From positions 21,458-85,457 of the IMG/VR virus record IMGVR_UViG_3300045988_107835: a stretch of DNA of 64,000 nt, one strand, 5' to 3'. The notes beneath the pieces were generated by a model that did no database searches, was not told the origin of the DNA, and was given only the letters and a program-made list of their open reading frames with translations. Every line of letters starts with the position of its first letter. The stretch's first letter is position 1. The position numbers and the translations under genes are program-made. The stretch is from a virus. Below, one piece after another: positions 2,020-46,145 of the stretch.

Positions 2020-2631
2020 TTATTCTACACATATAAATCCGTATTTTTTTATTATATGACAAATATCATTATTATCCATTCTGAACCATTCTCCACCTAC
2101 TCTTACCGAATCATATTCTTTATGTATTAATAATTCTACATTTTTATTGCATACTCCTATTATAGATAAATTAGGATTCCCGATAGATAGCGTTTTAAGT
2201 CTTTCAATAGGGTTACGGCTTTTCCCTATTTTAAATAAACCACTCGAACTATCTTTAATTATATAGGTATTAATATCACCACTGGAATTTTTATCATGCG
2301 TGACTGGGGCTGGTTTGTTACATACTGTAAGGAGTGATGCGTTTTTACCGAACAATATGGATATTACATCTATAGCATCTTCGTATATAACGGATAAAGA
2401 TTGCAGCATGATATACAAATCAACTTGTCTCATCATGTTATCATTTATAAACGTTAATACTCCAAATCCACTATCAATGAAAATAATACTTACATTTTCT
2501 CCGTACACTTTATTGAATAGGTTATATACTTTTTCATTGTCATTTTCTTCAAATTCTATTATTTTAAAATTTTTACTATTAAACGGAGAGTCGTCTTCAT
2601 TTAATAGTAAATCAACAATATATCTATCCAT
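2020..2631 (-). CDS. T5orf172 (GIY-YIG-like) domain protein, AT-rich, probable selfish/homing-type insertion
   Basis: C-terminal motif LFKIGKSRNPIERLKTLS ... GGEWF matches the T5orf172/MUG113 signature; opposite strand to its neighbours; markedly more AT-rich than flanking genes. Confidence 0.6.
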   Translation of the reverse strand: MDRYIVDLLLNEDDSPFNSKNFKIIEFEENDNEKVYNLFNKVYGENVSIIFIDSGFGVLTFINDNMMRQVDLYIMLQSLSVIYEDAIDVISILFGKNASLLTVCNKPAPVTHDKNSSGDINTYIIKDSSSGLFKIGKSRNPIERLKTLSIGNPNLSIIGVCNKNVELLIHKEYDSVRVGGEWFRMDNNDICHIIKKYGFICVE

Positions 2632-2798
2632 GTATTTATTTTTTTTATGTTATACGCAAATATACAATACAATACTTCCTATTATATTGTCTGTGTGTTA
2701 ATTTATTCAAATTAATCTATTTTAAATCATTTTAATTTGTAAATCATATTTGAATGTCTGTATTTGCATCGTAATCAAGAGAGATTATAATACAAAAA

Positions 2799-2930
2799 CA
2801 GTGGTGATGGAAGGTGATACTTCGGTTTGTGTCACAGGTTCGAGTCCTGTATTTTTCATGTAAGAAAAATTAGATCAGTTGGTAGATCAAAACCTCCTTT
2901 CATATCAAAACACCTTCCAGGTTCTCCCTG
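2799..2930 (+). ncRNA. YrlA-like (Y RNA-like) ncRNA: circularly permuted tRNA-like domain plus long 5'/3' stem
   Basis: T-arm ACAGG-TTCGAGT-CCTGT (2834-2850). Next is a perfect 7-bp acceptor-like stem ATTTTTC/GAAAAAT closed by hexaloop ATGTAA (2851-2870). Then TA and a canonical D-arm GATC-AGTTGGTA-GATC (2871-2888), with anticodon-stem pair AAACC (2890-2894)/GGTTT (2824-2828). The open anticodon-side strands continue as a long stem GGAAGGTG (2809-2816)/CACCTTCC (2911-2918) with a GATA/TATC segment and an AAAA bulge. Sits 380 nt upstream of the Ro60 gene. Confidence 0.7.
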
Positions 2931-2970
2931 TTTTAATAAAATATACAGATGGTGAGGAGTTCGGTTACTT

Positions 2971-3044
2971 CGAAAATTAGCGTAGTGGTTTAACGCAGCA
3001 TCAGGTACATTTGCTTTTCATCGGTTCGAATCCGATATTTTCAT
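2971..3044 (+). ncRNA. tRNA-like element 2 (normal order, degenerate anticodon arm), preceded by conserved 5' module 2946-2970
   Basis: Acceptor CGAAAAT/ATTTTCA (6 of 7 pairs), D-arm GCGT-AGTGGTTTA-ACGC, T-arm ATCGG-TTCGAAT-CCGAT, 73-nt canonical spacing. Anticodon stem has only 3 pairs closing an 11-nt loop TCAGGTACATT, so it is probably not a decoding tRNA. Confidence 0.5.
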
Positions 3045-3117
3045 TTTAGATCCGGCTCCGCTTTTCCTCTGTTTGGAAGACATAAGAAACTAATGAGTGG
3101 TGATGGGGTTAGTTACT

Positions 3118-3191
3118 TCGAATTTAGCTCAGATGGATAGAGCGATACTCTTTTAAAGTATAGGTCGATGGTTCAAATCCATTATTTCATT
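3118..3191 (+). tRNA. tRNA-like element 3: perfect D-, anticodon- and T-arms with UUU (Lys) anticodon loop CTTTTAA, but poorly paired acceptor stem; possible pseudo-tRNA or Y-RNA module
   Basis: D-arm GCTC-AGATGGATA-GAGC, anticodon arm ATACT-CTTTTAA-AGTAT, variable AGGTC, T-arm GATGG-TTCAAAT-CCATT. Acceptor strands TCGAATT/ATTTCAT pair at only 4 of 7 positions. Preceded by conserved module 3094-3117. Confidence 0.45.
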
Positions 3192-3250
3192 GTTTACACT
3201 AACTTCAGCTTTTCCCTCATTGAGTATTCATTTTGATATATTTTTTTTCA

Positions 3251-3281
3251 AGCAGTGGTAGTAATATCACTGCTTTTTTTG
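3251..3281 (+). terminator. rho-independent terminator after tRNA-like cluster
   Basis: Stem AGCAGTG/CACTGCT with 10-nt loop followed by TTTTTTT. Confidence 0.55.
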
Positions 3282-3306
3282 TATAACACTTTAAAGAAAA
3301 CAACAA

Positions 3307-4941
3307 ATGGGAAAGTTTAACAAAAAGGATGAAGGTGTTAAACCTACGATCGTGAATCAAATGGGCGAGAAGGCGTATAAGCCTAACGCAGAAGAAGAGT
3401 TGGTATCTACGGTAATGACTACCATGTTATCTGATTCTTATTATGAGAAAGAAAAAGATAAAGTAGAAAGAATTAAGAACCTTATGGATCAGGTGGATCC
3501 GTATTTTGCAGCACAAACAGCATTGTATGTTAGGAAAGAAGGAAAGCTTAGGTCAGTAACGCATCTTATGGCTTCTGTCATTGCCAGCAAAGCATCGGGT
3601 AAGGAATGGGCTTCAAGGTTCTATAACAAGATCATTATGCGTCCTGATGATATGAGTGAAATTCTTGGCTGCTATGCGGCTCTTAACGACAAAAATCCAA
3701 AGAAGTTAAGAGGTATATCCAGTGCTATTAAGAAAGGATTCAAGACGGCTTTGGAAGGTCTTGATCCGTACCGGATTGATAAGTATAAGATGGACAGTAG
3801 GGTCATTACTATGGTTGACTTAGTAAACTTATTTCACCCTAAAGGCAATCAGGCTAATAAAATGGCTTTCCAGTACCTTATAGAAGGTCGGTCTTTGTCT
3901 GGATTATACGAAAGCAAGATTCTTGAAAAAGAGATGTCTAAAGCCGGACAGGATAAGAAAGACAATAAGGAAAAGGAAGAAGCTTTAGGTGACGCTATTC
4001 GGGACGTGGTTTCTAATGTAAAAGGCATGCCTATTTTTAATATGGTTCGTAACCTTGTAAACATAATCAAATACGCGCCTGATCAAATAGATGAAGTTTG
4101 TAGGCAGCTTACAATAGAAGAGAAGGTACTTAATTCGAAGATGCTTCCTTTCCGTTTTGCTTCAGCTTTCAAAGAGGTTGAAAATATGGGCACTGATGGT
4201 TCCGATAATGATATTGTATTTGAGTCGGATAAAAAACGAGCTAAATTAACAGCGCGTAATAAATATAAGATTTTAGATGCGTTGGAGAAAGCCATAACCA
4301 TCTCCTGCAAGAACCTGCCGGTATTGGAGGGGCGGTCGGCTATCCTGATTGACCACTCTGGCTCTGTACGTGGAGATATGGGAGGATCTTCTGAGGTGTC
4401 TGCCTTTAGCAAAACAAGTACGGCTGTCATTGGCAACTTGTTTGGCTGTATGATTGCTTCTGTGCTTCCTGACGTATTTATTGGTATGTTTGGTGACAAA
4501 CTTATCAATTACGAATATGATAGAAGTAAAGGTGTTTTATGGAATAACAAAAAATCTTTTACTGCCGGAGGAGAATGCGGTGGTGCCACTGAAAACGGTC
4601 TTTTTGCATTCTTGGATAAGTGCGTTAAAGATAAGATCAAAGTAGATAACTTGTACGTTATTTCAGATATGCAGATAGGAGACGGTGAATCTGTTGTATG
4701 GGAGAAAAGTTCCAGTTATGGATATGGCAAATTCGCCGAACTTTTGAAAGGGTTCAAGAAAGTGAATCCAAATTGCAAAATCGTTTCTATTTCTATTCAA
4801 GGATATGGAAGTGAGATGTTTTACAGAGGATCTAATATCTTGAACATAGCTGGCTGGTCAGAATCTATCTTCGATGTTATTAACAGCAAGTTCTGCGGAT
4901 ATAAGAATATGATTGATGAAATTAAGAAGATTAAGATTTAA
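3307..4941 (+). CDS. rsr: Ro60/Rsr orthologue: TROVE domain plus C-terminal von Willebrand A (MIDAS) domain
   Basis: 544 aa. N-terminal VNQM...DSYYEKEKDK parallels human Ro60 VNQM...GTYYIKEQK; LPFRFASAF matches the Ro60 HPFHILIAL segment. vWA MIDAS: ILIDHSGSV (DxSxS), AGGECGGATENG, LYVISDMQIGDG, GWSESIFDVINSKF, collinear with Ro60 LLAVDVSASM / AGGTDCS / VFTDNE / GFDTGALDVIRNF. Confidence 0.85.
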   Translation: MGKFNKKDEGVKPTIVNQMGEKAYKPNAEEELVSTVMTTMLSDSYYEKEKDKVERIKNLMDQVDPYFAAQTALYVRKEGKLRSVTHLMASVIASKASGKEWASRFYNKIIMRPDDMSEILGCYAALNDKNPKKLRGISSAIKKGFKTALEGLDPYRIDKYKMDSRVITMVDLVNLFHPKGNQANKMAFQYLIEGRSLSGLYESKILEKEMSKAGQDKKDNKEKEEALGDAIRDVVSNVKGMPIFNMVRNLVNIIKYAPDQIDEVCRQLTIEEKVLNSKMLPFRFASAFKEVENMGTDGSDNDIVFESDKKRAKLTARNKYKILDALEKAITISCKNLPVLEGRSAILIDHSGSVRGDMGGSSEVSAFSKTSTAVIGNLFGCMIASVLPDVFIGMFGDKLINYEYDRSKGVLWNNKKSFTAGGECGGATENGLFAFLDKCVKDKIKVDNLYVISDMQIGDGESVVWEKSSSYGYGKFAELLKGFKKVNPNCKIVSISIQGYGSEMFYRGSNILNIAGWSESIFDVINSKFCGYKNMIDEIKKIKI

Positions 4942-4986
4942 ATCTTACATTCGTACTGTTTTCATAAGAAGAGATTTATCATAACA

Positions 4987-5027
4987 AGCCGGAGAATGAA
5001 TGGTGGCATTCTTCGGCTATTTTGTTT
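4987..5027 (+). terminator. candidate terminator after Ro60 gene
   Basis: Nested hairpin AGCCG...(GAATG gtggc CATTC)...CGGCT followed by ATTTTGTTT. Confidence 0.4.
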
Positions 5028-5034
5028 ACATTTG
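5027..5034 (+). promoter_or_regulatory. candidate -7 box TACATTTG (Bacteroidota-type TAnnTTTG) 13 nt upstream of ATG 5047
   Basis: Exact TAnnTTTG match; no clear -33 TTTG. Confidence 0.3.
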
Positions 5035-5046
5035 TTGAAAAAAAGA

Positions 5047-5466
5047 ATGAAAGAAAAAGAATTTGATTTTGTGATATATCCACTAAAGTTGATTATCACC
5101 ATAGGGTTAGATTACAAAACATTGTGTGATCGTTTTGAGAATGCAGAATTGGATCATGAAGGAGAATGGGGAGATGAAGGCGATTTAGATTCAGAAGTCT
5201 CTTTTATGAATCTTGTTCGTGATAAGGGGGATGATAGAGCTTTTAAGTTATTATGGAATTTTCAAAGTGAGAATGATATGACTATACAAAACATATGTCA
5301 TGAATCATTTCATGCAGCTATGTCGGTATGCCAACATTGTAATATGTCTCTTGGCTTTAAGGTGGGAGAAGATGAACACGCAGCTTACATAGCCGGATTT
5401 GTTGGTAATTGCGCAGATGAAATGTTTGGATTCTTAGAGGAAGAAAAAGATGGCAAAGAAGAGTAA
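5047..5466 (+). CDS. small acidic protein with HExxH motif (possible mini zinc metallopeptidase-like)
   Basis: Internal ATG of ORF 4996-5466 placed after the -7 box; motif CHESFHAAM plus downstream EDEHAAY; acidic tail. Confidence 0.4.
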   Translation: MKEKEFDFVIYPLKLIITIGLDYKTLCDRFENAELDHEGEWGDEGDLDSEVSFMNLVRDKGDDRAFKLLWNFQSENDMTIQNICHESFHAAMSVCQHCNMSLGFKVGEDEHAAYIAGFVGNCADEMFGFLEEEKDGKEE

Positions 5467-42546: not shown

Positions 42547-43566
42547 TCATCGATTTATCTTTTTAGACGGATCCCAATCTGAAGAGAAAGGGCATTCGTT
42601 TTTGTTATGTAATCCAAAGTCACAATAATAACACAGTGCCGACGGGCAGGGTAGCTTGTTTTGCGAAACAGGCTGGCTTAGGGTGGCACGCCGCTTGCTA
42701 TATCTGGCCCCTTCTGCTCCCTGGATGTACGCTTGAAATGATTTTACACTATTATCTTCAAAATCATACATTTTAGATAAAGTGTCATTTAGCATTTCTA
42801 TAGATTTTGTTTTACGCTCTTCATCCACCTTAACCTTTTGGTACTGTCTGGTCCTGGTAAAGAAATAGATGTTCATATCTGGCAGAACTCCACCATATTT
42901 TCTATAGATGTAAAACGAATATATAGGATGCTGTAAATTCGTTTCCAACTTCTTAGAATCAAAAACCTTATTACCTGATTTCCAATCTATGACATAATGG
43001 TGAACTACGTTCTTGCTCTTTATAGCCAGATGAAGATCCACCGATCCTACTATGTACACATGAGTATGAACGGTCCCATTTATATCAACAGGCTTAGGAA
43101 GACGGTACGGCAGCACAAAATCTTCTTCGACTCCAACTATAGCACCGCGTCTAATAAGTTTCTCGCAGGGATTAAGATCACTATCAGCTATCATAAACTT
43201 ATTCCCGTCTTTTTTAAACAGATCCACAATCCAAGCAAGAAGCTCCCCGGATTGCTTCATGGCTATCATCATATTTTCCGGTGATTGCCAAGGTATGTCT
43301 TCTTGATAGGAATAGTAACTTATTGCTTCTCCAAGGTCTTTACCAGAAGGCTGTCTTCCGTTCTTAAAAAAGTATTCCAGTGTCTTATGGATAACCGTAC
43401 CATAAGACGTAGCTTCTTGTTTTTCCGTAGGCCTTTTGCCCTCTACGTAAGTCTTATACCATTTCATTGGACAGGTAAGAAACGTATCTATCTGGGAATA
43501 AGATATGGCAAGACGTTTTACACCATTAAACTCCTTATATAGCAAATGCGTTTCCGGGACCATCAT
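42547..43566 (-). CDS. Cas4/RecB-like PD-(D/E)XK exonuclease with C-terminal FeS Cys cluster
   Basis: N-terminal ISYSQIDTFLTCP, catalytic core GSVDLH ... VIDWKSG (DYKTG-like), C-terminal CPSALCYYCDFGLHNKNEC. Confidence 0.75.
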   Translation of the reverse strand: MMVPETHLLYKEFNGVKRLAISYSQIDTFLTCPMKWYKTYVEGKRPTEKQEATSYGTVIHKTLEYFFKNGRQPSGKDLGEAISYYSYQEDIPWQSPENMMIAMKQSGELLAWIVDLFKKDGNKFMIADSDLNPCEKLIRRGAIVGVEEDFVLPYRLPKPVDINGTVHTHVYIVGSVDLHLAIKSKNVVHHYVIDWKSGNKVFDSKKLETNLQHPIYSFYIYRKYGGVLPDMNIYFFTRTRQYQKVKVDEERKTKSIEMLNDTLSKMYDFEDNSVKSFQAYIQGAEGARYSKRRATLSQPVSQNKLPCPSALCYYCDFGLHNKNECPFSSDWDPSKKINR

Positions 43567-43910
43567 AAGTCATTGTCTTTAAATCCTTCCGGGTAATATA
43601 CGACATACTTCTTACCGTCTTCTGGTGTCATGGCAAACTGCATGTAGTTATTACGATTACGATGCTTGCCATCTAATCCTCGCTTCCAATACAGAATCCC
43701 ATCTATATCCACATAAGACCGTCCGCGTTCGGCTCTAACTACGTCCGTGTGTAGCAGATACCCGTCGGAAGACACAATCCATACTTTATCCCCTTTGTTT
43801 AAATAAGATATTCTTTTTCTTACAACAACCTTTTCCTTATTATCTAATGCAAATTCTTCATCCGTCATATTCTTCATCCTCCTCTTCTTCTGTTTCAAAA
43901 TCAATTCCAT
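43563..43910 (-). CDS. hypothetical protein
   Basis: 115 aa. Confidence 0.45.
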   Translation of the reverse strand: MELILKQKKRRMKNMTDEEFALDNKEKVVVRKRISYLNKGDKVWIVSSDGYLLHTDVVRAERGRSYVDIDGILYWKRGLDGKHRNRNNYMQFAMTPEDGKKYVVYYPEGFKDNDL

Positions 43911-44406
43911 ATCCCATATTCTATTAAATATATTTAAAGCTATTCGTATGTTTTAATACATCCCCTCGGAGACTTTTCGGTCTCCTTGGTAGATGTAAAT
44001 CCCGTTAGGGATAAGTCAGGATTTCTCCTGTAAGTACCCATCGCCAATGTTATTTAAGGTTTTGAATAAGCAACACTGTTCCTCAAATACCAGAACTGTT
44101 CAATCACTTACCTTAGAGCTACAGACTTGGGCAAACATCCGTAGGTAACTATCTATTCTTAAATAACGTAGCCTTTGTTTCAAGGCTTAGGCTAATAACC
44201 CGATCTCTTAAAGAGATGTATTAAACTTTTATAATAGAATTATATTGGTTTAATACTATTTGGGGTTATAACACTGATCATAATGATTGGTCAGTTCTTC
44301 TGGTTCTAAATCTTGTCCAAAATCCATGTTAAAAATATCGTAATTAGTAAAGCACTTAAAAGCACTGTTTCCGCCGGCAGGAAATCTATGAATGCTGCTT
44401 TTATTT

Positions 44407-44454
44407 CTTCAATTAGGCCCAAGTGTAACCTTGGGCCATTGTATTTATTTTTTG
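44407..44454. terminator. hairpin GGCCCAAG/CTTGGGCC immediately 3' of the flotillin gene (bidirectional terminator candidate)
   Basis: 8-bp GC-rich stem, 6-nt loop; U-run on the plus-strand side. Confidence 0.4.
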
Positions 44455-46145
44455 TCATCTCCCTTTAACTTCTTTAAAGTATCTGCAATCGGAAGCTGAT
44501 CGATGACTCCCAATGCCGGAGCGACGGTCTTGACAACATTGTTAAGGAAATTACCGGTACTGTTCTGACCGCCGTCAAATACCGTGATATTTCCGAGGTT
44601 AATGTGCTCAAATGCTTTAACCTGTTCTCCAGCAATTTCTTTCCACTGATTAACCATCTTGTACTGGATGGCGATCTGAGGATTGGATTCTGCTGCTTCC
44701 ACCATAGCCTTAAATCCGTCGGCTTCTGCCATCAACGATTTTTTCTTACCTTCGGCTTCTGCCTCCAGCTTCATCTGAATAGCTTTTGCCTCCGCCTCAG
44801 CTTTTGCCAAATGTGCTGCTGCTTCTGCCTCAGCCCGGCGTTTGATCTTCTCTGCCTCAGCATCAGCTTGCAAGATAGCCTCTTCCTTCTGGGTTTCAGC
44901 CGGCACAATCTTTTCAGCCTTAAGCGCAGCCTGAACTTTCTTAGCCTTAGCTTCTTCCACTTCTTTGTCGGCAAGCTCTTTTGCTGTTTTTACAGCCGCT
45001 TCCGATTTAACTTTTTCTTCTCCGGCCTTCTTCTCTGATTGAGCTTTGATGATCTGTAGTTCTGATACTGATACAGCAACCTCCTTCTGGGCATTGTTGT
45101 ATCCTATAGACGCATTTTTCTCAGCCTCAGCCTTCTTAATCTGAGCTTCAGAGTCTTGTATTGCTATAGCTGCTTCCTTGTCAGCTTCAGCCTTATTCTT
45201 TCCGACTTCTTCCATTCTTTCAGCCTCGGCTTTATTTACTTCAAGTTCTGCCTTAGATCTTACAATCGCCGATTCCTTGTCGGTTAAAGTTTTTGCGATA
45301 ACCGCAGCCCTGTCTCTATCTGCTTGAGCTACGCCGATCTGTCTCTCTTTATCGGTTAAAGCCAAGGCTATTTCTTTTTCTTTCTTCGTTTCAGCTACTA
45401 TCGTTTCCTTTTCTTTTTCAGTACAAGCAATTTGAATCTCTTGTTCTTTTTTGGTATTAGCCACAGCCGTTTCTTTCTCCTTCTGCTGTACAGCAATCTT
45501 AATAGCACCCAGCTTCTCCTGCTCTTCGATATTAGCTTGTGCTTCGTTCAGAGCCCTACTTTCAGCCTCCTTACCAAGGTTCATAATATAACCTGCTTCG
45601 TCTCTGATGTCACTGATGTTGATGTTCAGGAGGTAAAGACCTAACTTGTTAAGCTCGTTATCAATGTTCTTTCTTGCCTTATCCAAAAACTCATCCCTGT
45701 CAGAATTAAGTTTTTCGATTGTCATTTCAGCAATAATCAAACGCATCTGACCGTAAACGATGTCCGTAATAAGATTTTCAGTAGATTCGGTATCCATCCC
45801 CAAAAGTCTTTCTGCCGCATTTTGCATGATTTCGGGATTTGTACTGATAGCTACTGTAATGGTCGTAGGTACATCTACTCTAATATTCTGAGATGACAAA
45901 GCACCGGTAAGCTTGCAATCTATTTGCATAGGCTCCATTGACAAAACATCATAGCTTTGAATAATAGGCAAGACGAATGCCGCTCCACCATGATATAATT
46001 TCGCCGACTTCTTTTCCCCACCTGTCTTACCGTAAACGACCAAGACCTGATTAGGCTTACATCTACGATACCTTGATAAGACTCCGATGATTGTCAAAAT
46101 AATCACTACGGCTAAGATAGCTGACACGTACATGATTGTTGTCAT
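44445..46145 (-). CDS. SPFH/band-7 flotillin-like protein (YqiK/FloA-like)
   Basis: N-terminal TM helix, SPFH core (NQVLVVYGKTGG...), long Ala/Glu/Lys-rich coiled coil typical of the flotillin EA-repeat region. Confidence 0.8.
   Translation of the reverse strand: MTTIMYVSAILAVVIILTIIGVLSRYRRCKPNQVLVVYGKTGGEKKSAKLYHGGAAFVLPIIQSYDVLSMEPMQIDCKLTGALSSQNIRVDVPTTITVAISTNPEIMQNAAERLLGMDTESTENLITDIVYGQMRLIIAEMTIEKLNSDRDEFLDKARKNIDNELNKLGLYLLNINISDIRDEAGYIMNLGKEAESRALNEAQANIEEQEKLGAIKIAVQQKEKETAVANTKKEQEIQIACTEKEKETIVAETKKEKEIALALTDKERQIGVAQADRDRAAVIAKTLTDKESAIVRSKAELEVNKAEAERMEEVGKNKAEADKEAAIAIQDSEAQIKKAEAEKNASIGYNNAQKEVAVSVSELQIIKAQSEKKAGEEKVKSEAAVKTAKELADKEVEEAKAKKVQAALKAEKIVPAETQKEEAILQADAEAEKIKRRAEAEAAAHLAKAEAEAKAIQMKLEAEAEGKKKSLMAEADGFKAMVEAAESNPQIAIQYKMVNQWKEIAGEQVKAFEHINLGNITVFDGGQNSTGNFLNNVVKTVAPALGVIDQLPIADTLKKLKGDDKK

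What the first reader, a model, noticed from the sequence alone, without database searches (positions are those of the whole stretch)
2799..4941. Phage Ro60 (TROVE+vWA) orthologue with adjacent tRNA-like/Y-RNA-like RNAs: candidate Ro60-Y RNA module
The 544-aa protein at 3307-4941 is collinear with Ro60/Rsr. Its N-terminus (VNQM, SYYEKEK) and the PF-helix (LPFRFASAF) match, and the C-terminal vWA MIDAS residues match one by one (DHSGS, AGGxxG, ISDMQ, GWSESIFDVINSKF versus human DVSAS, AGGTD, FTDNE, GFDTGALDVIRNF). Immediately upstream are three tandem tRNA-like RNAs, and the unit is bracketed by terminators at 3251-3281 and 4987-5027. Bacterial Rsr is characteristically encoded next to YrlA Y RNAs that mimic tRNA. 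A phage carrying its own Ro60 plus cognate RNAs would be an RNA quality-control, decay or anti-defence RNP.
Basis: partly seen in the sequence, partly recalled or inferred. Interest (0 to 1): 0.9.

Follow-up and report, generated by a model that had tools for sequence, protein, structure and literature searches.

The report
Gut phage Ro60 with three Y RNAs
A large human-gut phage carries its own copy of the RNA-binding ring protein Ro60 and, just upstream, three small tRNA-mimicking "Y RNA" genes that probably partner with it. Phage modules of this kind are already known, but here two of the RNAs have been annotated as ordinary tRNAs.

Summary
ORF 3307-4941 is a full-length Ro60/Rsr orthologue. 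It scores above the Pfam TROVE cut-off, its predicted fold matches every solved Ro60, and its vWA MIDAS residues are invariant. Upstream lie three tandem RNA units on the same strand: 2794-2935, 2942-3075 and 3090-3223. A promoter-like site precedes them and a terminator-like hairpin follows.

All three units share one scaffold. It consists of a closing helix with a single bulged U, an RG:CY step, a YGR motif, a second helix and an invariant UACUUCG. The scaffold carries a tRNA-like head. Unit 1 has the circularly permuted head of YrlA. Units 2 and 3 carry an unpermuted cloverleaf with a degenerate acceptor stem, the orientation described for Deinococcus Yrn1.

The scaffold covaries strongly across crAss-like phages, jumbo phages and Lachnospiraceae loci that encode related TROVE proteins. 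GenBank's nearest record calls the protein Rsr but lists units 2 and 3 as tRNA-Tyr and tRNA-Lys.

Phage Ro60-Y RNA modules are already described in mycobacteriophages and Thermus phage phiLo, so this is a new member of a known kind. Its distinctive features are mixed head orientations on one stem and anticodon switching between close relatives. RNA expression, Ro60 binding and function were not tested.

The parts
2763..2791 (+). Promoter-like site (TTTGCA, 17-nt spacer, TATAAT) immediately upstream of unit 1. It is the candidate start of one transcript covering the three RNAs.
   Evidence: Consensus scan gives 10 of 12 matches. The block TTTGCA(T/G)(C/T)GTAATCAAGAGAGATTATAA is conserved in relatives L001, L084 and L082, and L082 and L083 carry a Bacteroidetes-type TAnnTTTG there. 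Function is inferred only.
2794..2935 (+). Y RNA unit 1, with a YrlA-type circularly permuted tRNA-like head. Helix 1 is 2795-2801 paired with 2928-2934. The bulged U is 2802. GG 2803-2804 pairs with CC 2926-2927. Helix 2 is 2809-2816 paired with 2911-2918. UACUUCG is 2818-2824. The T arm is 2833-2850, the closed acceptor-like hairpin 2851-2870 and the D arm 2871-2888.
   Evidence: Rfam YrlA scores 33 bits (gathering score 69), local E = 2.9e-5, with the T/acceptor/D order aligned. The MFE fold recovers all helices, z = -3.69, 0 of 200 shuffles as good. Model R1, which was not trained on this unit, scores 40.4 bits end to end. In 11 permuted-type units, all 154 cells of helix 1, RG:CY and the T stem are canonical pairs with compensatory changes.
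2942..3075 (+). Y RNA unit 2, with an unpermuted cloverleaf head. UACUUCGAA starts at 2966. The D arm is 2980-2996. The anticodon-like arm is 2998-3014, with loop AGGUACA around GUA. The T arm is 3020-3036. Helix 2 is 2956-2965 paired with 3050-3059. Helix 1 with its bulged U is 2945-2952 paired with 3066-3072.
   Evidence: The tRNA model scores 40.9 bits, but with a 3-bp anticodon stem and an 11-nt loop. ARAGORN misses it. The acceptor stem is 6 of 7 pairs with C1xA72. The MFE fold recovers helix 1, the bulge, GG:CC and helix 2. Covariation is shown. The homologue in GenBank OR575929.1 is annotated tRNA-Tyr.
3090..3223 (+). Y RNA unit 3, with an unpermuted cloverleaf head. UACUUCGAA starts at 3114. 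The D arm is 3127-3143. The anticodon-like arm is 3145-3161, with loop CUUUUAA (UUU). The T arm is 3167-3183. Helix 2 is 3108-3113 paired with 3198-3203. Helix 1 with its bulged U is 3092-3100 paired with 3214-3221.
   Evidence: The tRNA model scores 53.3 bits and ARAGORN calls tRNA-Lys(UUU). The acceptor stem has only 4 of 7 pairs. The four ordinary tRNAs of the sister phage all have 7 of 7. The Y stem is recovered by the MFE fold and by the unguided RNAalifold consensus.
3250..3282 (+). Terminator-like hairpin (11-bp stem, 4-nt loop) plus a U run, between the RNA cluster and the Ro60 start codon.
   Evidence: Found by the scan. Conserved in L001 and L084; L082 has a different hairpin with a U run at the same place.
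3307..4941 (+). Ro60/Rsr orthologue of 544 aa: an N-terminal TROVE HEAT-repeat ring and a C-terminal vWA domain with MIDAS residues D349-x-S351-x-S353, T428 and D454.
   Evidence: Supported. The AlphaFold2 model has pLDDT 74 and pTM 0.64. The top 13 Foldseek PDB hits are all Ro60/Rsr/TROVE over the full length, with TM-scores normalised by query length of 0.53-0.66, followed by vWA domains. The MIDAS residues are invariant in 27 homologues.
4987..5028 (+). Terminator-like hairpin (12-bp stem) plus a T-rich tail after the Ro60 gene.
   Evidence: Found by the scan.

Best explanation
This is a phage-encoded Ro60-Y RNA ribonucleoprotein module in a roughly 150-kb human-gut phage. The phage is 96% identical at this locus to 'phage csAssE-Sib', which carries crAss-type gene names.

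Three Y RNA genes are probably transcribed together from a promoter near 2763-2791 and end at the hairpin at 3250-3282. The Ro60 gene follows on the same strand.

Each RNA has the same scaffold, made by pairing its 5' and 3' ends. The scaffold is helix 1 interrupted by one bulged U, then an RG:CY step, a YGR motif, helix 2, and an invariant UACUUCG(A) junction. This scaffold is the likely docking site for the Ro60 ring.

The scaffold presents a tRNA-like head. In unit 1 the head is permuted, as in YrlA. In units 2 and 3 it is an unpermuted D arm, anticodon arm and T arm cloverleaf with a weakened acceptor stem.

By analogy with Deinococcus and Salmonella Rsr-Y RNA-PNPase and with Thermus phage phiLo Ro60-Yrl-PNPase, the heads most likely tether the phage Ro60 to host RNA-handling proteins, with PNPase first among the candidates. 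That would re-tune host RNA decay or quality control during infection.

Shown here: protein identity, RNA architecture, covariation, and linkage of RNA and protein across many loci. Inferred: co-transcription, Ro60 binding to the stem, the partner protein, and the effect on RNA decay. I put the PNPase-tether step at roughly 0.4.
For: Protein. It is Ro60 by sequence profile, by fold and by MIDAS residues.

RNA scaffold.
- The unguided RNAalifold consensus of 13 cloverleaf-type units recovers helix 1, the bulged U, RG:CY, helix 2 and the D, anticodon and T arms. 23 of 26 pairs show compensatory changes.
- 93.8% of cells are paired, against 65.2 +/- 1.9% in shuffles (0 of 500 as high) and 35-50% with slid partners. 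Helix 1 is 97.4% paired.
- Across 93 distinct model-aligned matches, about 57 of which span helix 1, helix 1 is 96.7% paired and all 9 of its pairs change on both sides.
- In 11 permuted-type units, 154 of 154 cells are canonical.
- Single-sequence MFE folds recover helix 1 in all 12 units tested and the bulged U plus RG:CY step in 10 of them.

Linkage to the protein. YrlA-model hits of 30-33 bits recur next to the TROVE gene in relatives at 89%, 72% and 57% protein identity. End-to-end model matches lie beside TROVE genes, on the gene's strand, in crAss-like phages, 280-430-kb jumbo phages, a Prevotella-labelled scaffold and Lachnospiraceae loci. Ordinary tRNAs match only the model core.

The stem is the constant part. 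In three close relatives, unit 2 has lost its tRNA-like head but keeps the stem.

Precedent. Y RNAs lie within 4 kb of Ro60 on the same strand in 254 bacteria and 22 phages (PMC4201824). phiLo Ro60 binds two upstream Y-like RNAs and host PNPase (PMC12135203).
Against: - No expression, processing or binding data exist for this uncultured phage.
- Unit 1 scores only 33 bits on Rfam YrlA, against a gathering score of 69.
- The canonical 5' motif GNCGAAN0-1G is not matched exactly. The units have GGUGAU/GGUGAG, and CGAA only inside UACUUCGAA.
- Units 2 and 3 pass the Rfam tRNA threshold, and some relatives have perfect 7-bp acceptor stems. Release of real tRNAs from these precursors therefore cannot be excluded.
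- MFE z-scores for units 2 and 3 are unremarkable, at -0.38 and -1.22.
- A terminator-like hairpin separates the RNAs from the protein gene, so co-regulation is not assured.
Confidence: 0.8

Rival explanations
1. Units 2 and 3 are ordinary functional phage tRNA genes, tRNA-Tyr and tRNA-Lys as annotated in GenBank OR575929.1. They merely sit next to the Ro60 gene, and only unit 1, if any, is a Y RNA.
For: The Rfam tRNA model scores 40.9 and 53.3 bits, above the gathering score of 29. ARAGORN calls tRNA-Lys(UUU) for unit 3. GenBank annotates both as tRNAs. The D, anticodon and T arms covary like tRNA arms. Homologous units in L082 and L182 have 7 of 7 acceptor pairs.
Against: - Unit 3 has only 4 of 7 acceptor pairs. 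Unit 2 has a C1xA72 mismatch, a 3-bp anticodon stem and an A32-G33...C37 loop. Unit 2 also has a short variable region, whereas bacterial tRNA-Tyr is a long-arm class II tRNA (established knowledge).
- The four ordinary tRNAs of the sister phage have 7 of 7 acceptor stems and none of the flanking motifs.
- Both units carry the same covarying closing stem and the GGUGA/UACUUCG motifs as unit 1, as do head-less units elsewhere.
- Unit 2 loses its cloverleaf in some strains but keeps the stem.
- The 'anticodon' changes between near-identical relatives.
Confidence: 0.08
2. This is a variant of the main reading rather than an exclusive alternative. The cloverleaf heads are baits for host tRNA-targeting defence nucleases or for tRNA-modifying enzymes. 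The Y stem with Ro60 stabilises a nuclease-facing anticodon-arm mimic (GUA 'Tyr' in unit 2, UUU 'Lys' in unit 3). The mimic soaks up or senses anticodon nucleases, and the anticodon switches as the host defence repertoire changes.
For: - Unit 2 keeps GUA in most strains although its stem changes.
- Unit 3 is UUU in the window, GUU in L084 and GUG in L082.
- The L174 and L184 units are 124 of 126 nt identical. Their only two differences are at anticodon positions 34 and 35 (GAU to UCU), while the flanking DNA is 84-91% identical.
- tRNA-Tyr and tRNA-Lys are targets of retron-Eco7 PtuAB and PrrC, and phages counter those systems with their own tRNAs (PMC11555353).
- The sister phage encodes a polynucleotide kinase/3'-phosphatase and a CCA-adding-type nucleotidyltransferase.
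- In bacteria, Rsr and YrlA sit in the RtcB RNA-repair operon, which is induced by damaged tRNA (PMC7790460 abstract).
Against: The evidence is purely circumstantial. No anticodon nuclease is known for the Bacteroidales hosts of this phage. Across lineages the anticodon-like loops are very diverse and some are non-canonical. Anticodon switching would equally fit real decoding tRNAs. No RNA ligase is annotated in the sister genome.
Confidence: 0.2
3. The long 5'/3' stems are simply processing sites (for example for RNase III) of a small tRNA operon and have nothing to do with Ro60.
For: Leader-trailer duplexes flanking stable RNAs are classic RNase III substrates (established knowledge). The units are tandem and probably co-transcribed.
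Against: - The stems carry invariant unpaired motifs (the bulged U, YGR and UACUUCG). These are conserved across phages whose helices have completely different sequences.
- The same scaffold occurs without any tRNA-like insert.
- It is found beside TROVE genes in distantly related loci.
- It is absent from the ordinary tRNA cluster of the sister phage.
- A canonical Paenibacillus rsr locus shows a comparable arrangement...GCG-A-GG-CGA...CCUUCG.
Confidence: 0.04

Closest known systems
Bacterial Rsr with YrlA/YrlB Y RNAs (Salmonella Typhimurium, Mycobacterium smegmatis; Chen et al. 2014, PMC4201824; Rfam RF02553)
   Same: A Ro60 orthologue is encoded with several Y RNAs upstream on the same strand. 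One RNA (unit 1) has the permuted order of T arm, closed acceptor hairpin and D arm on a long 5'/3' stem. Relatives also carry short head-less Y RNAs resembling YrlB.
   Different: Unit 1 reaches only 33 bits against the gathering score of 69. The 5' motif is GGUGAU rather than GNCGAA. There is an extra outer helix with a bulged U. Two of the three RNAs are not permuted. The carrier is a gut phage and no RtcB/RtcA operon accompanies the module.
Thermus phage phiLo Ro60 with Yrl1/Yrl2 (NAR 2025, PMC12135203; PDB 9kop, 9l5y)
   Same: A phage-encoded Ro60 has Y-like RNAs immediately upstream. It is the best sequence and structure match to this protein. The RNAs are stem-internal loop-stem molecules with a CGAA-containing junction. 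The phage lacks its own PNPase and uses the host's.
   Different: The proteins share only about 22% identity. The phiLo paper describes Yrl1/2 as stem-bulge-stem RNAs and hardly mentions tRNA. Here there are three RNAs, all with tRNA-like heads.
Deinococcus radiodurans Rsr-Yrn1-PNPase (RYPER)
   Same: Per Chen 2014, Yrn1 has its T and D arms in the opposite order to YrlA, with an anticodon-like arm between them. That is the orientation of units 2 and 3. This system provides the functional model of a Y RNA tethering Ro60 to PNPase.
   Different: Yrn1 has only partial D-arm features and a 6-nt 'anticodon' loop. Units 2 and 3 are near-complete cloverleaves that pass tRNA models. No sequence homology to Yrn1 was tested.
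[quoted passage not shown]
   Same: These are phage genomes that carry a TROVE protein and a tRNA-like RNA partner.
   Different: They have different hosts and lineages. No paper was found in the searched library that links crAss-like phages to Ro60.
Phage tRNAs that evade tRNA-targeting defences (T5 tRNA-Tyr against retron-Eco7; tRNA-Lys against PrrC; PMC11555353)
   Same: These are phage-encoded molecules bearing Tyr- and Lys-type anticodon arms. The parallel matters only for the bait hypothesis.
   Different: Those are genuine, highly expressed decoding tRNAs. The units here have defective acceptor stems and are embedded in a Y RNA scaffold.

Membership tests
Ro60/Rsr (TROVE + vWA) protein family | TROVE domain detected above the curated threshold | tested here: met
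   Pfam PF05731 scores 52.3 bits against a cut-off of 23. PHROG 850 matches over the full length at 3e-29. phiLo Ro60 matches at E = 1.7e-16.
Ro60/Rsr (TROVE + vWA) protein family | Full-length ring fold like solved Ro60 structures | tested here: met
   The AF2 model has pLDDT 74. The top 13 Foldseek PDB hits are all Ro60/Rsr/TROVE (phiLo, Xenopus, human, D. radiodurans), at E = 3e-15 to 3e-10 and TM-scores of 0.53-0.76 depending on normalisation.
Ro60/Rsr (TROVE + vWA) protein family | C-terminal vWA domain with MIDAS residues (DxSxS, T, D) | tested here: met
   D349-H-S351-G-S353, T428 and D454 are invariant in 27 homologues. vWA domains are the next structural hits after Ro60. The DHSGS segment aligns with phiLo's DVSGS in a low-scoring C-terminal HMMER segment, so this last point is suggestive only. 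Pfam's VWA model itself gave no hit.
Ro60/Rsr (TROVE + vWA) protein family | Binds Y RNA or misfolded RNA | not testable with these tools
   Needs RNA immunoprecipitation or gel-shift assays.
YrlA Y RNA (Rfam RF02553; Chen et al. 2014) | Covariance-model score at or above the gathering score (69 bits) | tested here: not met
   Unit 1 scores 33 bits with local E = 2.9e-5. Homologues in L082, L083 and L084 score 30.6-33.3 bits. A Paenibacillus rsr locus scored only 38 bits with a partial match.
YrlA Y RNA (Rfam RF02553; Chen et al. 2014) | Encoded within 4 kb of the Ro60 gene on the same strand | tested here: met
   The units end 372, 232 and 84 nt upstream of the ATG at 3307, all on the + strand.
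YrlA Y RNA (Rfam RF02553; Chen et al. 2014) | Permuted tRNA-like domain: T arm, closed acceptor-like hairpin, D arm, carried on a 5'/3' stem | tested here: met
   Met for unit 1 only: T arm 2833-2850, hairpin 2851-2870, D arm 2871-2888. Units 2 and 3 have the unpermuted order and do not meet it.
YrlA Y RNA (Rfam RF02553; Chen et al. 2014) | 5' motif GNCGAAN0-1G | tested here: inconclusive
   Unit 1 has GGUGAUAC where the model has GGCGAAUG. All units have (R)GYGR after the bulged U. Units 2 and 3 have CGAA inside UACUUCGAA. Which of these elements is equivalent to the motif cannot be decided from sequence.
Yrn1-type Y RNA orientation (D. radiodurans) | D-like arm, then anticodon-like arm, then T arm, with the Ro-binding stem formed by the 5' and 3' ends | tested here: met
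   The consensus structure of 13 units recovers exactly this arrangement without an acceptor stem. Sequence homology to Yrn1 was not tested.
Functional tRNA (Rfam RF00005) | tRNA covariance-model score at or above 29 bits | tested here: met
   Unit 3 scores 53.3 bits and unit 2 scores 40.9 bits. ARAGORN finds only unit 3.
Functional tRNA (Rfam RF00005) | Intact 7-bp acceptor stem | tested here: not met
   Unit 3 has 4 of 7 pairs and unit 2 has 6 of 7 with C1xA72. The four ordinary tRNAs of the sister phage have 7 of 7. RNAalifold predicts no consensus acceptor stem.
Functional tRNA (Rfam RF00005) | Canonical anticodon arm (5-bp stem, 7-nt loop, U33, purine 37), and a long variable arm for bacterial tRNA-Tyr | tested here: not met
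   Window unit 2 has a 3-bp stem, loop A32-G33-GUA-C37 and a short variable region. Unit 3 does have a canonical arm, AUACU-CUUUUAA-AGUAU.
Functional tRNA (Rfam RF00005) | Processing to a CCA-tailed form and aminoacylation | not testable with these tools
   Needs tRNA sequencing or acid-gel northern blots.

The most novel reading that the evidence does not exclude
In these gut phages, Y RNA scaffolds have been turned into interchangeable display stands for complete tRNA mimics. The same Ro60-binding stem carries permuted heads, unpermuted heads or no head. The unpermuted heads present genuine anticodon arms whose triplet is switched between near-identical phages (GAU/UCU/UUU; UUU/GUU/GUG). These would act as Ro60-protected baits or sensors for host anticodon nucleases or tRNA-modifying enzymes. 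That would be a new anti-defence use of the Ro60-Y RNA system, and direct evidence that YrlA-type and Yrn1-type Y RNAs interconvert rather than arising independently.
Probability: 0.15. Interest if true: 0.8.

Novelty: new member of a known kind. Interest (0 to 1): 0.5.

Why it matters
Ro60-Y RNA particles are conserved from bacteria to humans, and what the tRNA-like part of bacterial Y RNAs does is still unresolved. This locus and its relatives offer a natural experiment on that question. One conserved stem carries three different head designs, heads are lost in some strains, and anticodon triplets are swapped between strains.

The module is common. The protein clusters hold thousands of metagenomic copies, and there are 220 IMG/VR hits. 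It occurs in crAss-like and jumbo phages of the human gut. Commensal Ro60 orthologues have been linked to anti-Ro60 autoimmunity in lupus (reviewed in PMC6801612). Phage-borne Ro60 would therefore be an overlooked source of that antigen.

There is also a practical consequence. Two 'tRNA' annotations in GenBank OR575929.1 are probably Y RNAs, and tRNA finders will repeat that error in related genomes.

Tried and rejected
- A regex plus best-complement scan for the 3' partner of helix 1 was too permissive with G-U pairs in AT-rich sequence. A stricter own-versus-other-partner permutation gave 13.7 against 11.4 +/- 0.8 of 16. I relied instead on unguided RNAalifold and pair counting.
- A global MAFFT alignment of 77 upstream regions was inflated by indels and was not used. 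I tabulated per-unit anticodon arms instead.
- The MAFFT alignment of permuted-type units (A2) is unreliable in its 3' half. Only helix 1, RG:CY and the T stem were counted.
- Literature searches for 'crAss-like' plus Ro60 and for 'csAssE-Sib' found nothing. A 'TROVE' plus 'crAss' search returned only irrelevant word matches. The Annual Review on bacterial Ro60 (PMC10870794) is not held. One search failed on a term that was too short.
- I considered that unit 1 might be the tandem-tRNA artefact that Chen 2014 warn about, in which the T arm of one tRNA and the D arm of the next mimic YrlA. I rejected this because the element between the arms is a closed 7-bp hairpin and the unit has its own covarying closing stem.
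- The genome-contig scan used family-specific peptides. It therefore says little about bacterial Rsr in general or about the host's own Rsr.
- The Pfam VWA model did not hit the C-terminal domain. That domain is supported by fold and motif only.

Full report
**Observation.** ORF 3307-4941 (+) encodes 544 aa, and all the quoted peptide strings (VNQM, SYYEKEK, LPFRFASAF, DHSGS, ISDMQ, GWSESIFDVINSKF) are in the translation. Upstream, the local Rfam scan reports tRNA at 3118-3191 (53.3 bits), tRNA at 2971-3044 (40.9 bits, with an aberrant anticodon arm) and YrlA at 2810-2920 (33 bits against a gathering score of 69, local E = 2.9e-5). ARAGORN reports only the third, as tRNA-Lys(UUU). Terminator-like hairpins lie at 3250-3275 and 4987-5018, and a sigma-70-like promoter match lies at 2763-2791.

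**The protein.**
- Pfam TROVE scores 52.3 bits against a cut-off of 23.
- PHROG 850 'RNA-binding protein' matches over the full length.
- The only PDB sequence hits are the Ro60 of Thermus phage phiLo.
- An AlphaFold2 model built from 27 homologues has pLDDT 74 and pTM 0.64.
- Its 13 best Foldseek PDB matches are exclusively Ro60/Rsr/TROVE structures over the whole length: phiLo, Xenopus, human and Deinococcus. vWA domains come next.
- The MIDAS residues D349-x-S351-x-S353, T428 and D454 are invariant in the family alignment.
- I conclude this is a bona fide Ro60/Rsr orthologue.

**Origin.** The locus is 95.8% identical to GenBank OR575929.1, phage csAssE-Sib (human gut, 151 kb). That record annotates a 'Ro sixty-related protein' preceded by 'tRNA-Tyr' and 'tRNA-Lys'. 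The locus there lies between a crAss-type 'muzzle protein' and a tail lysozyme. IMG/VR holds 220 matching stretches, and the 90%-identity protein clusters hold thousands of member sequences.

More distant homologues fall into three groups. Other 100-150-kb phages share 72-89% protein identity. Contigs of 280-430 kb that look like jumbo phages share about 57% with this protein (and 51-100% with the jumbo-phage query). MAG or genome contigs labelled Prevotella, Lachnospiraceae and others share 45-54%.

**RNA anatomy.** Reading the three units side by side with their homologues in L084, L082 and L083 shows a shared scaffold. From 5' to 3' it runs:
- a 5-8-bp helix 1 formed by the extreme 5' and 3' ends;
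- one bulged U on the 5' strand;
- an RG:CY step (GG:CC here, AG:CU in many relatives);
- a YGR motif (UGA);
- a variable helix 2;
- an invariant (U)UACUUCG, followed by AA in units 2 and 3;
- the tRNA-like head;
- the 3' strand of helix 2;
- a U-rich internal loop;
- the 3' strands of RG:CY and helix 1.

Coordinates are in the parts list. Unit 1 carries a T arm, a closed 7-bp 'acceptor' hairpin and a D arm. This is the circularly permuted tRNA that defines YrlA. Units 2 and 3 carry a D arm, an anticodon arm and a T arm in the normal order, attached to the scaffold through a weakened acceptor stem. Chen et al. 2014 (PMC4201824) describe this opposite orientation for Deinococcus Yrn1. Relatives also have short units with the scaffold but no head, resembling YrlB or Yrn2.

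**Is the scaffold real?**
- An unguided RNAalifold consensus of 13 cloverleaf-type units from diverse loci recovers helix 1, the bulge, RG:CY, part of helix 2 and the three arms, but no acceptor stem. 23 of 26 pairs change on both sides.
- Pair counting gives 93.8% paired cells against 65.2 +/- 1.9% in column shuffles (0 of 500 as high) and 35-50% when partners are slid. The covariation score is 0.855 against 0.284.
- A covariance model built from this alignment was searched over 483 kb. In the window it finds only the three units. It finds further end-to-end matches next to TROVE genes in loci that were not used for training, including Lachnospiraceae loci (52-59 bits) and jumbo phages. Ordinary tRNAs match only the model's core.
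- On the model-fitted alignment, helix 1 is 96.7% paired and all nine pairs show double changes. This alignment leans towards the structure, but slid controls stay at 33-45%.
- For 11 permuted-type units, all 154 cells of helix 1, RG:CY and the T stem are canonical.
- Single-sequence MFE folds recover helix 1 in 12 of 12 units and the bulged U plus RG:CY step in 10 of them. Only unit 1 has a striking z-score, -3.69.

**Are units 2 and 3 just tRNAs?**
- They pass the tRNA model. But unit 3 has 4 of 7 acceptor pairs. Unit 2 has C1xA72, a 3-bp anticodon stem, G33 and C37, and no long variable arm as bacterial tRNA-Tyr would have.
- The four ordinary tRNAs of csAssE-Sib have perfect acceptor stems and no flanking motifs.
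- Among about 80 close relatives, unit 2 alternates between canonical (CUGUAAA) and non-canonical (AGGUACA, AGGUAAA) loops. It occasionally becomes GCA or GUU. In three genomes it has lost the cloverleaf altogether while keeping the scaffold.
- Unit 3 is UUU in the window, GUU in L084 and GUG in L082.
- In another lineage, two units are 124 of 126 nt identical and differ only at anticodon positions 34 and 35, while their flanks are 84-91% identical.
- The constant, selected part is therefore the scaffold, and the head is a modular, fast-changing accessory.
- Some relatives do have 7 of 7 acceptor stems, so processing into tRNA-like products, as seen for M. smegmatis YrlA (PMC4201824), cannot be excluded.

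**Mechanism.** The best-supported reading is a Ro60-Y RNA RNP. Ro60 binds the bulged-helix scaffold. Animal Ro60 recognises a bulged helix, and bacterial and phage Y RNAs use a CGAA-containing internal loop (PMC12135203, PMC4201824). The tRNA-like heads recruit partners. In Deinococcus and Salmonella the Y RNA tethers Rsr to PNPase. In Thermus phage phiLo the phage Ro60, its two upstream Y-like RNAs and host PNPase form a complex that attenuates RNA degradation (PMC12135203). All binding and functional steps here are inferred by analogy.

A more adventurous variant is that the anticodon-bearing heads are baits for tRNA-directed defence nucleases. tRNA-Tyr and tRNA-Lys are known targets that phages counter with their own tRNAs (PMC11555353). 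The sister phage also encodes a polynucleotide kinase/3'-phosphatase and a CCA-adding-type enzyme. This is circumstantial.

**Comparison and novelty.** Phage Ro60 with Y RNAs is established in three sets of reports:
- 22 phages, including mycobacteriophages (PMC4201824); PMC12135203 also cites CcrColossus and Bacillus phage G from that work;
- phiLo, with structures (PMC12135203);
- TROVE proteins noted in jumbo phages (PMC7824862).

The protein is already named Rsr in GenBank. New here is the recognition that the flanking 'tRNAs' are Y RNAs. Also new are that one locus mixes YrlA-type and Yrn1-type heads on a homologous stem, and that the module is widespread in human-gut crAss-like and jumbo phages. 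I file it as a new member of a known kind, of moderate interest.

Noticed in passing
window 44030-44269 (-): A full-length HEARO RNA (the IscB-associated omega-RNA family RF02033) scores 104 bits against a gathering score of 83. It has no IscB-sized ORF next to it. The downstream ORF 43563-43910 is only 115 aa with no Pfam hit. The neighbours are a flotillin/Band_7 gene (44445-46145) and a PD-(D/E)XK nuclease (42547-43566). The sister phage csAssE-Sib has only about 25-160 nt of intergenic space in this region (it also annotates a small hypothetical ORF there), so this may be an orphan insertion.
   Followed up: partly
window 2020-2631 (-): An ORF of 203 aa with a T5orf172/MUG113 (GIY-YIG-related) domain sits between the muzzle-protein gene and the Y RNA cluster. 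In csAssE-Sib the same interval is 184 nt instead of 818 nt, so this looks like a mobile homing-endonuclease-type insertion right beside the RNA genes.
   Followed up: partly
L174 4375-4500, L177 4663-4789, L184 1461-1586: Three near-identical cloverleaf-type Y units differ in their anticodon triplet (GAU, UUU, UCU). The L174 and L184 units differ at only two of 126 nt, both at anticodon positions 34 and 35, while their flanks are 84-91% identical.
   Followed up: yes
L083 11422-11564; L165 12456-12598 and 12680-12826; L166 12183-12336 and 12418-12564: Jumbo-phage-like contigs of 280-360 kb carry a related TROVE gene. Their permuted Y units are embedded in a tRNA array about 4.7 kb downstream. 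These units additionally contain a complete anticodon-like arm (for example AAUUC-CUUUUAA-GAAUU), so the tRNA is permuted at the variable-loop position.
   Followed up: partly
L194-L199 (about 3713-3970 in L194, L196 and L197): Lachnospiraceae-labelled genomes and MAGs, including the 560-kb scaffold of Lachnospiraceae bacterium A4, carry a 45-46% identical TROVE gene. It is preceded by a short unit and a cloverleaf unit with the same UACUUCG junction. The motif after the bulge is different (U-AC-UAAU). In these units CUUCG pairs with CGAAG after the T arm.
   Followed up: partly
window 2755-2792; L082 about 3505-3545; L083 about 4925-4960: A conserved block lies upstream of the RNA cluster. 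L082 and L083 have TATCTTTGCAGTG and the window has TGTATTTGCATCG, followed by TAATCAAGAGAGATTATAA. It resembles the Bacteroidetes -7 promoter element TAnnTTTG, which suggests transcription by host RNA polymerase and a Bacteroidota host.
   Followed up: no
L186 3537-4409 and L188 37063-37725 (OR575929.1, outside the window): The sister phage encodes a polynucleotide kinase/3'-phosphatase, an NrnA-like phosphodiesterase and a poly(A)/CCA-adding-type nucleotidyltransferase. These are parts of an RNA end-healing toolkit, but no RNA ligase is annotated. It also encodes a diversity-generating retroelement and two TnpB genes.
   Followed up: no
window 4996-5466 (+): The mechanical ORF starts inside the terminator-like hairpin at 4987-5018. 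The homologous CDS in csAssE-Sib is 19 codons shorter, so the real start is probably the internal ATG near 5047, downstream of the hairpin.
   Followed up: no
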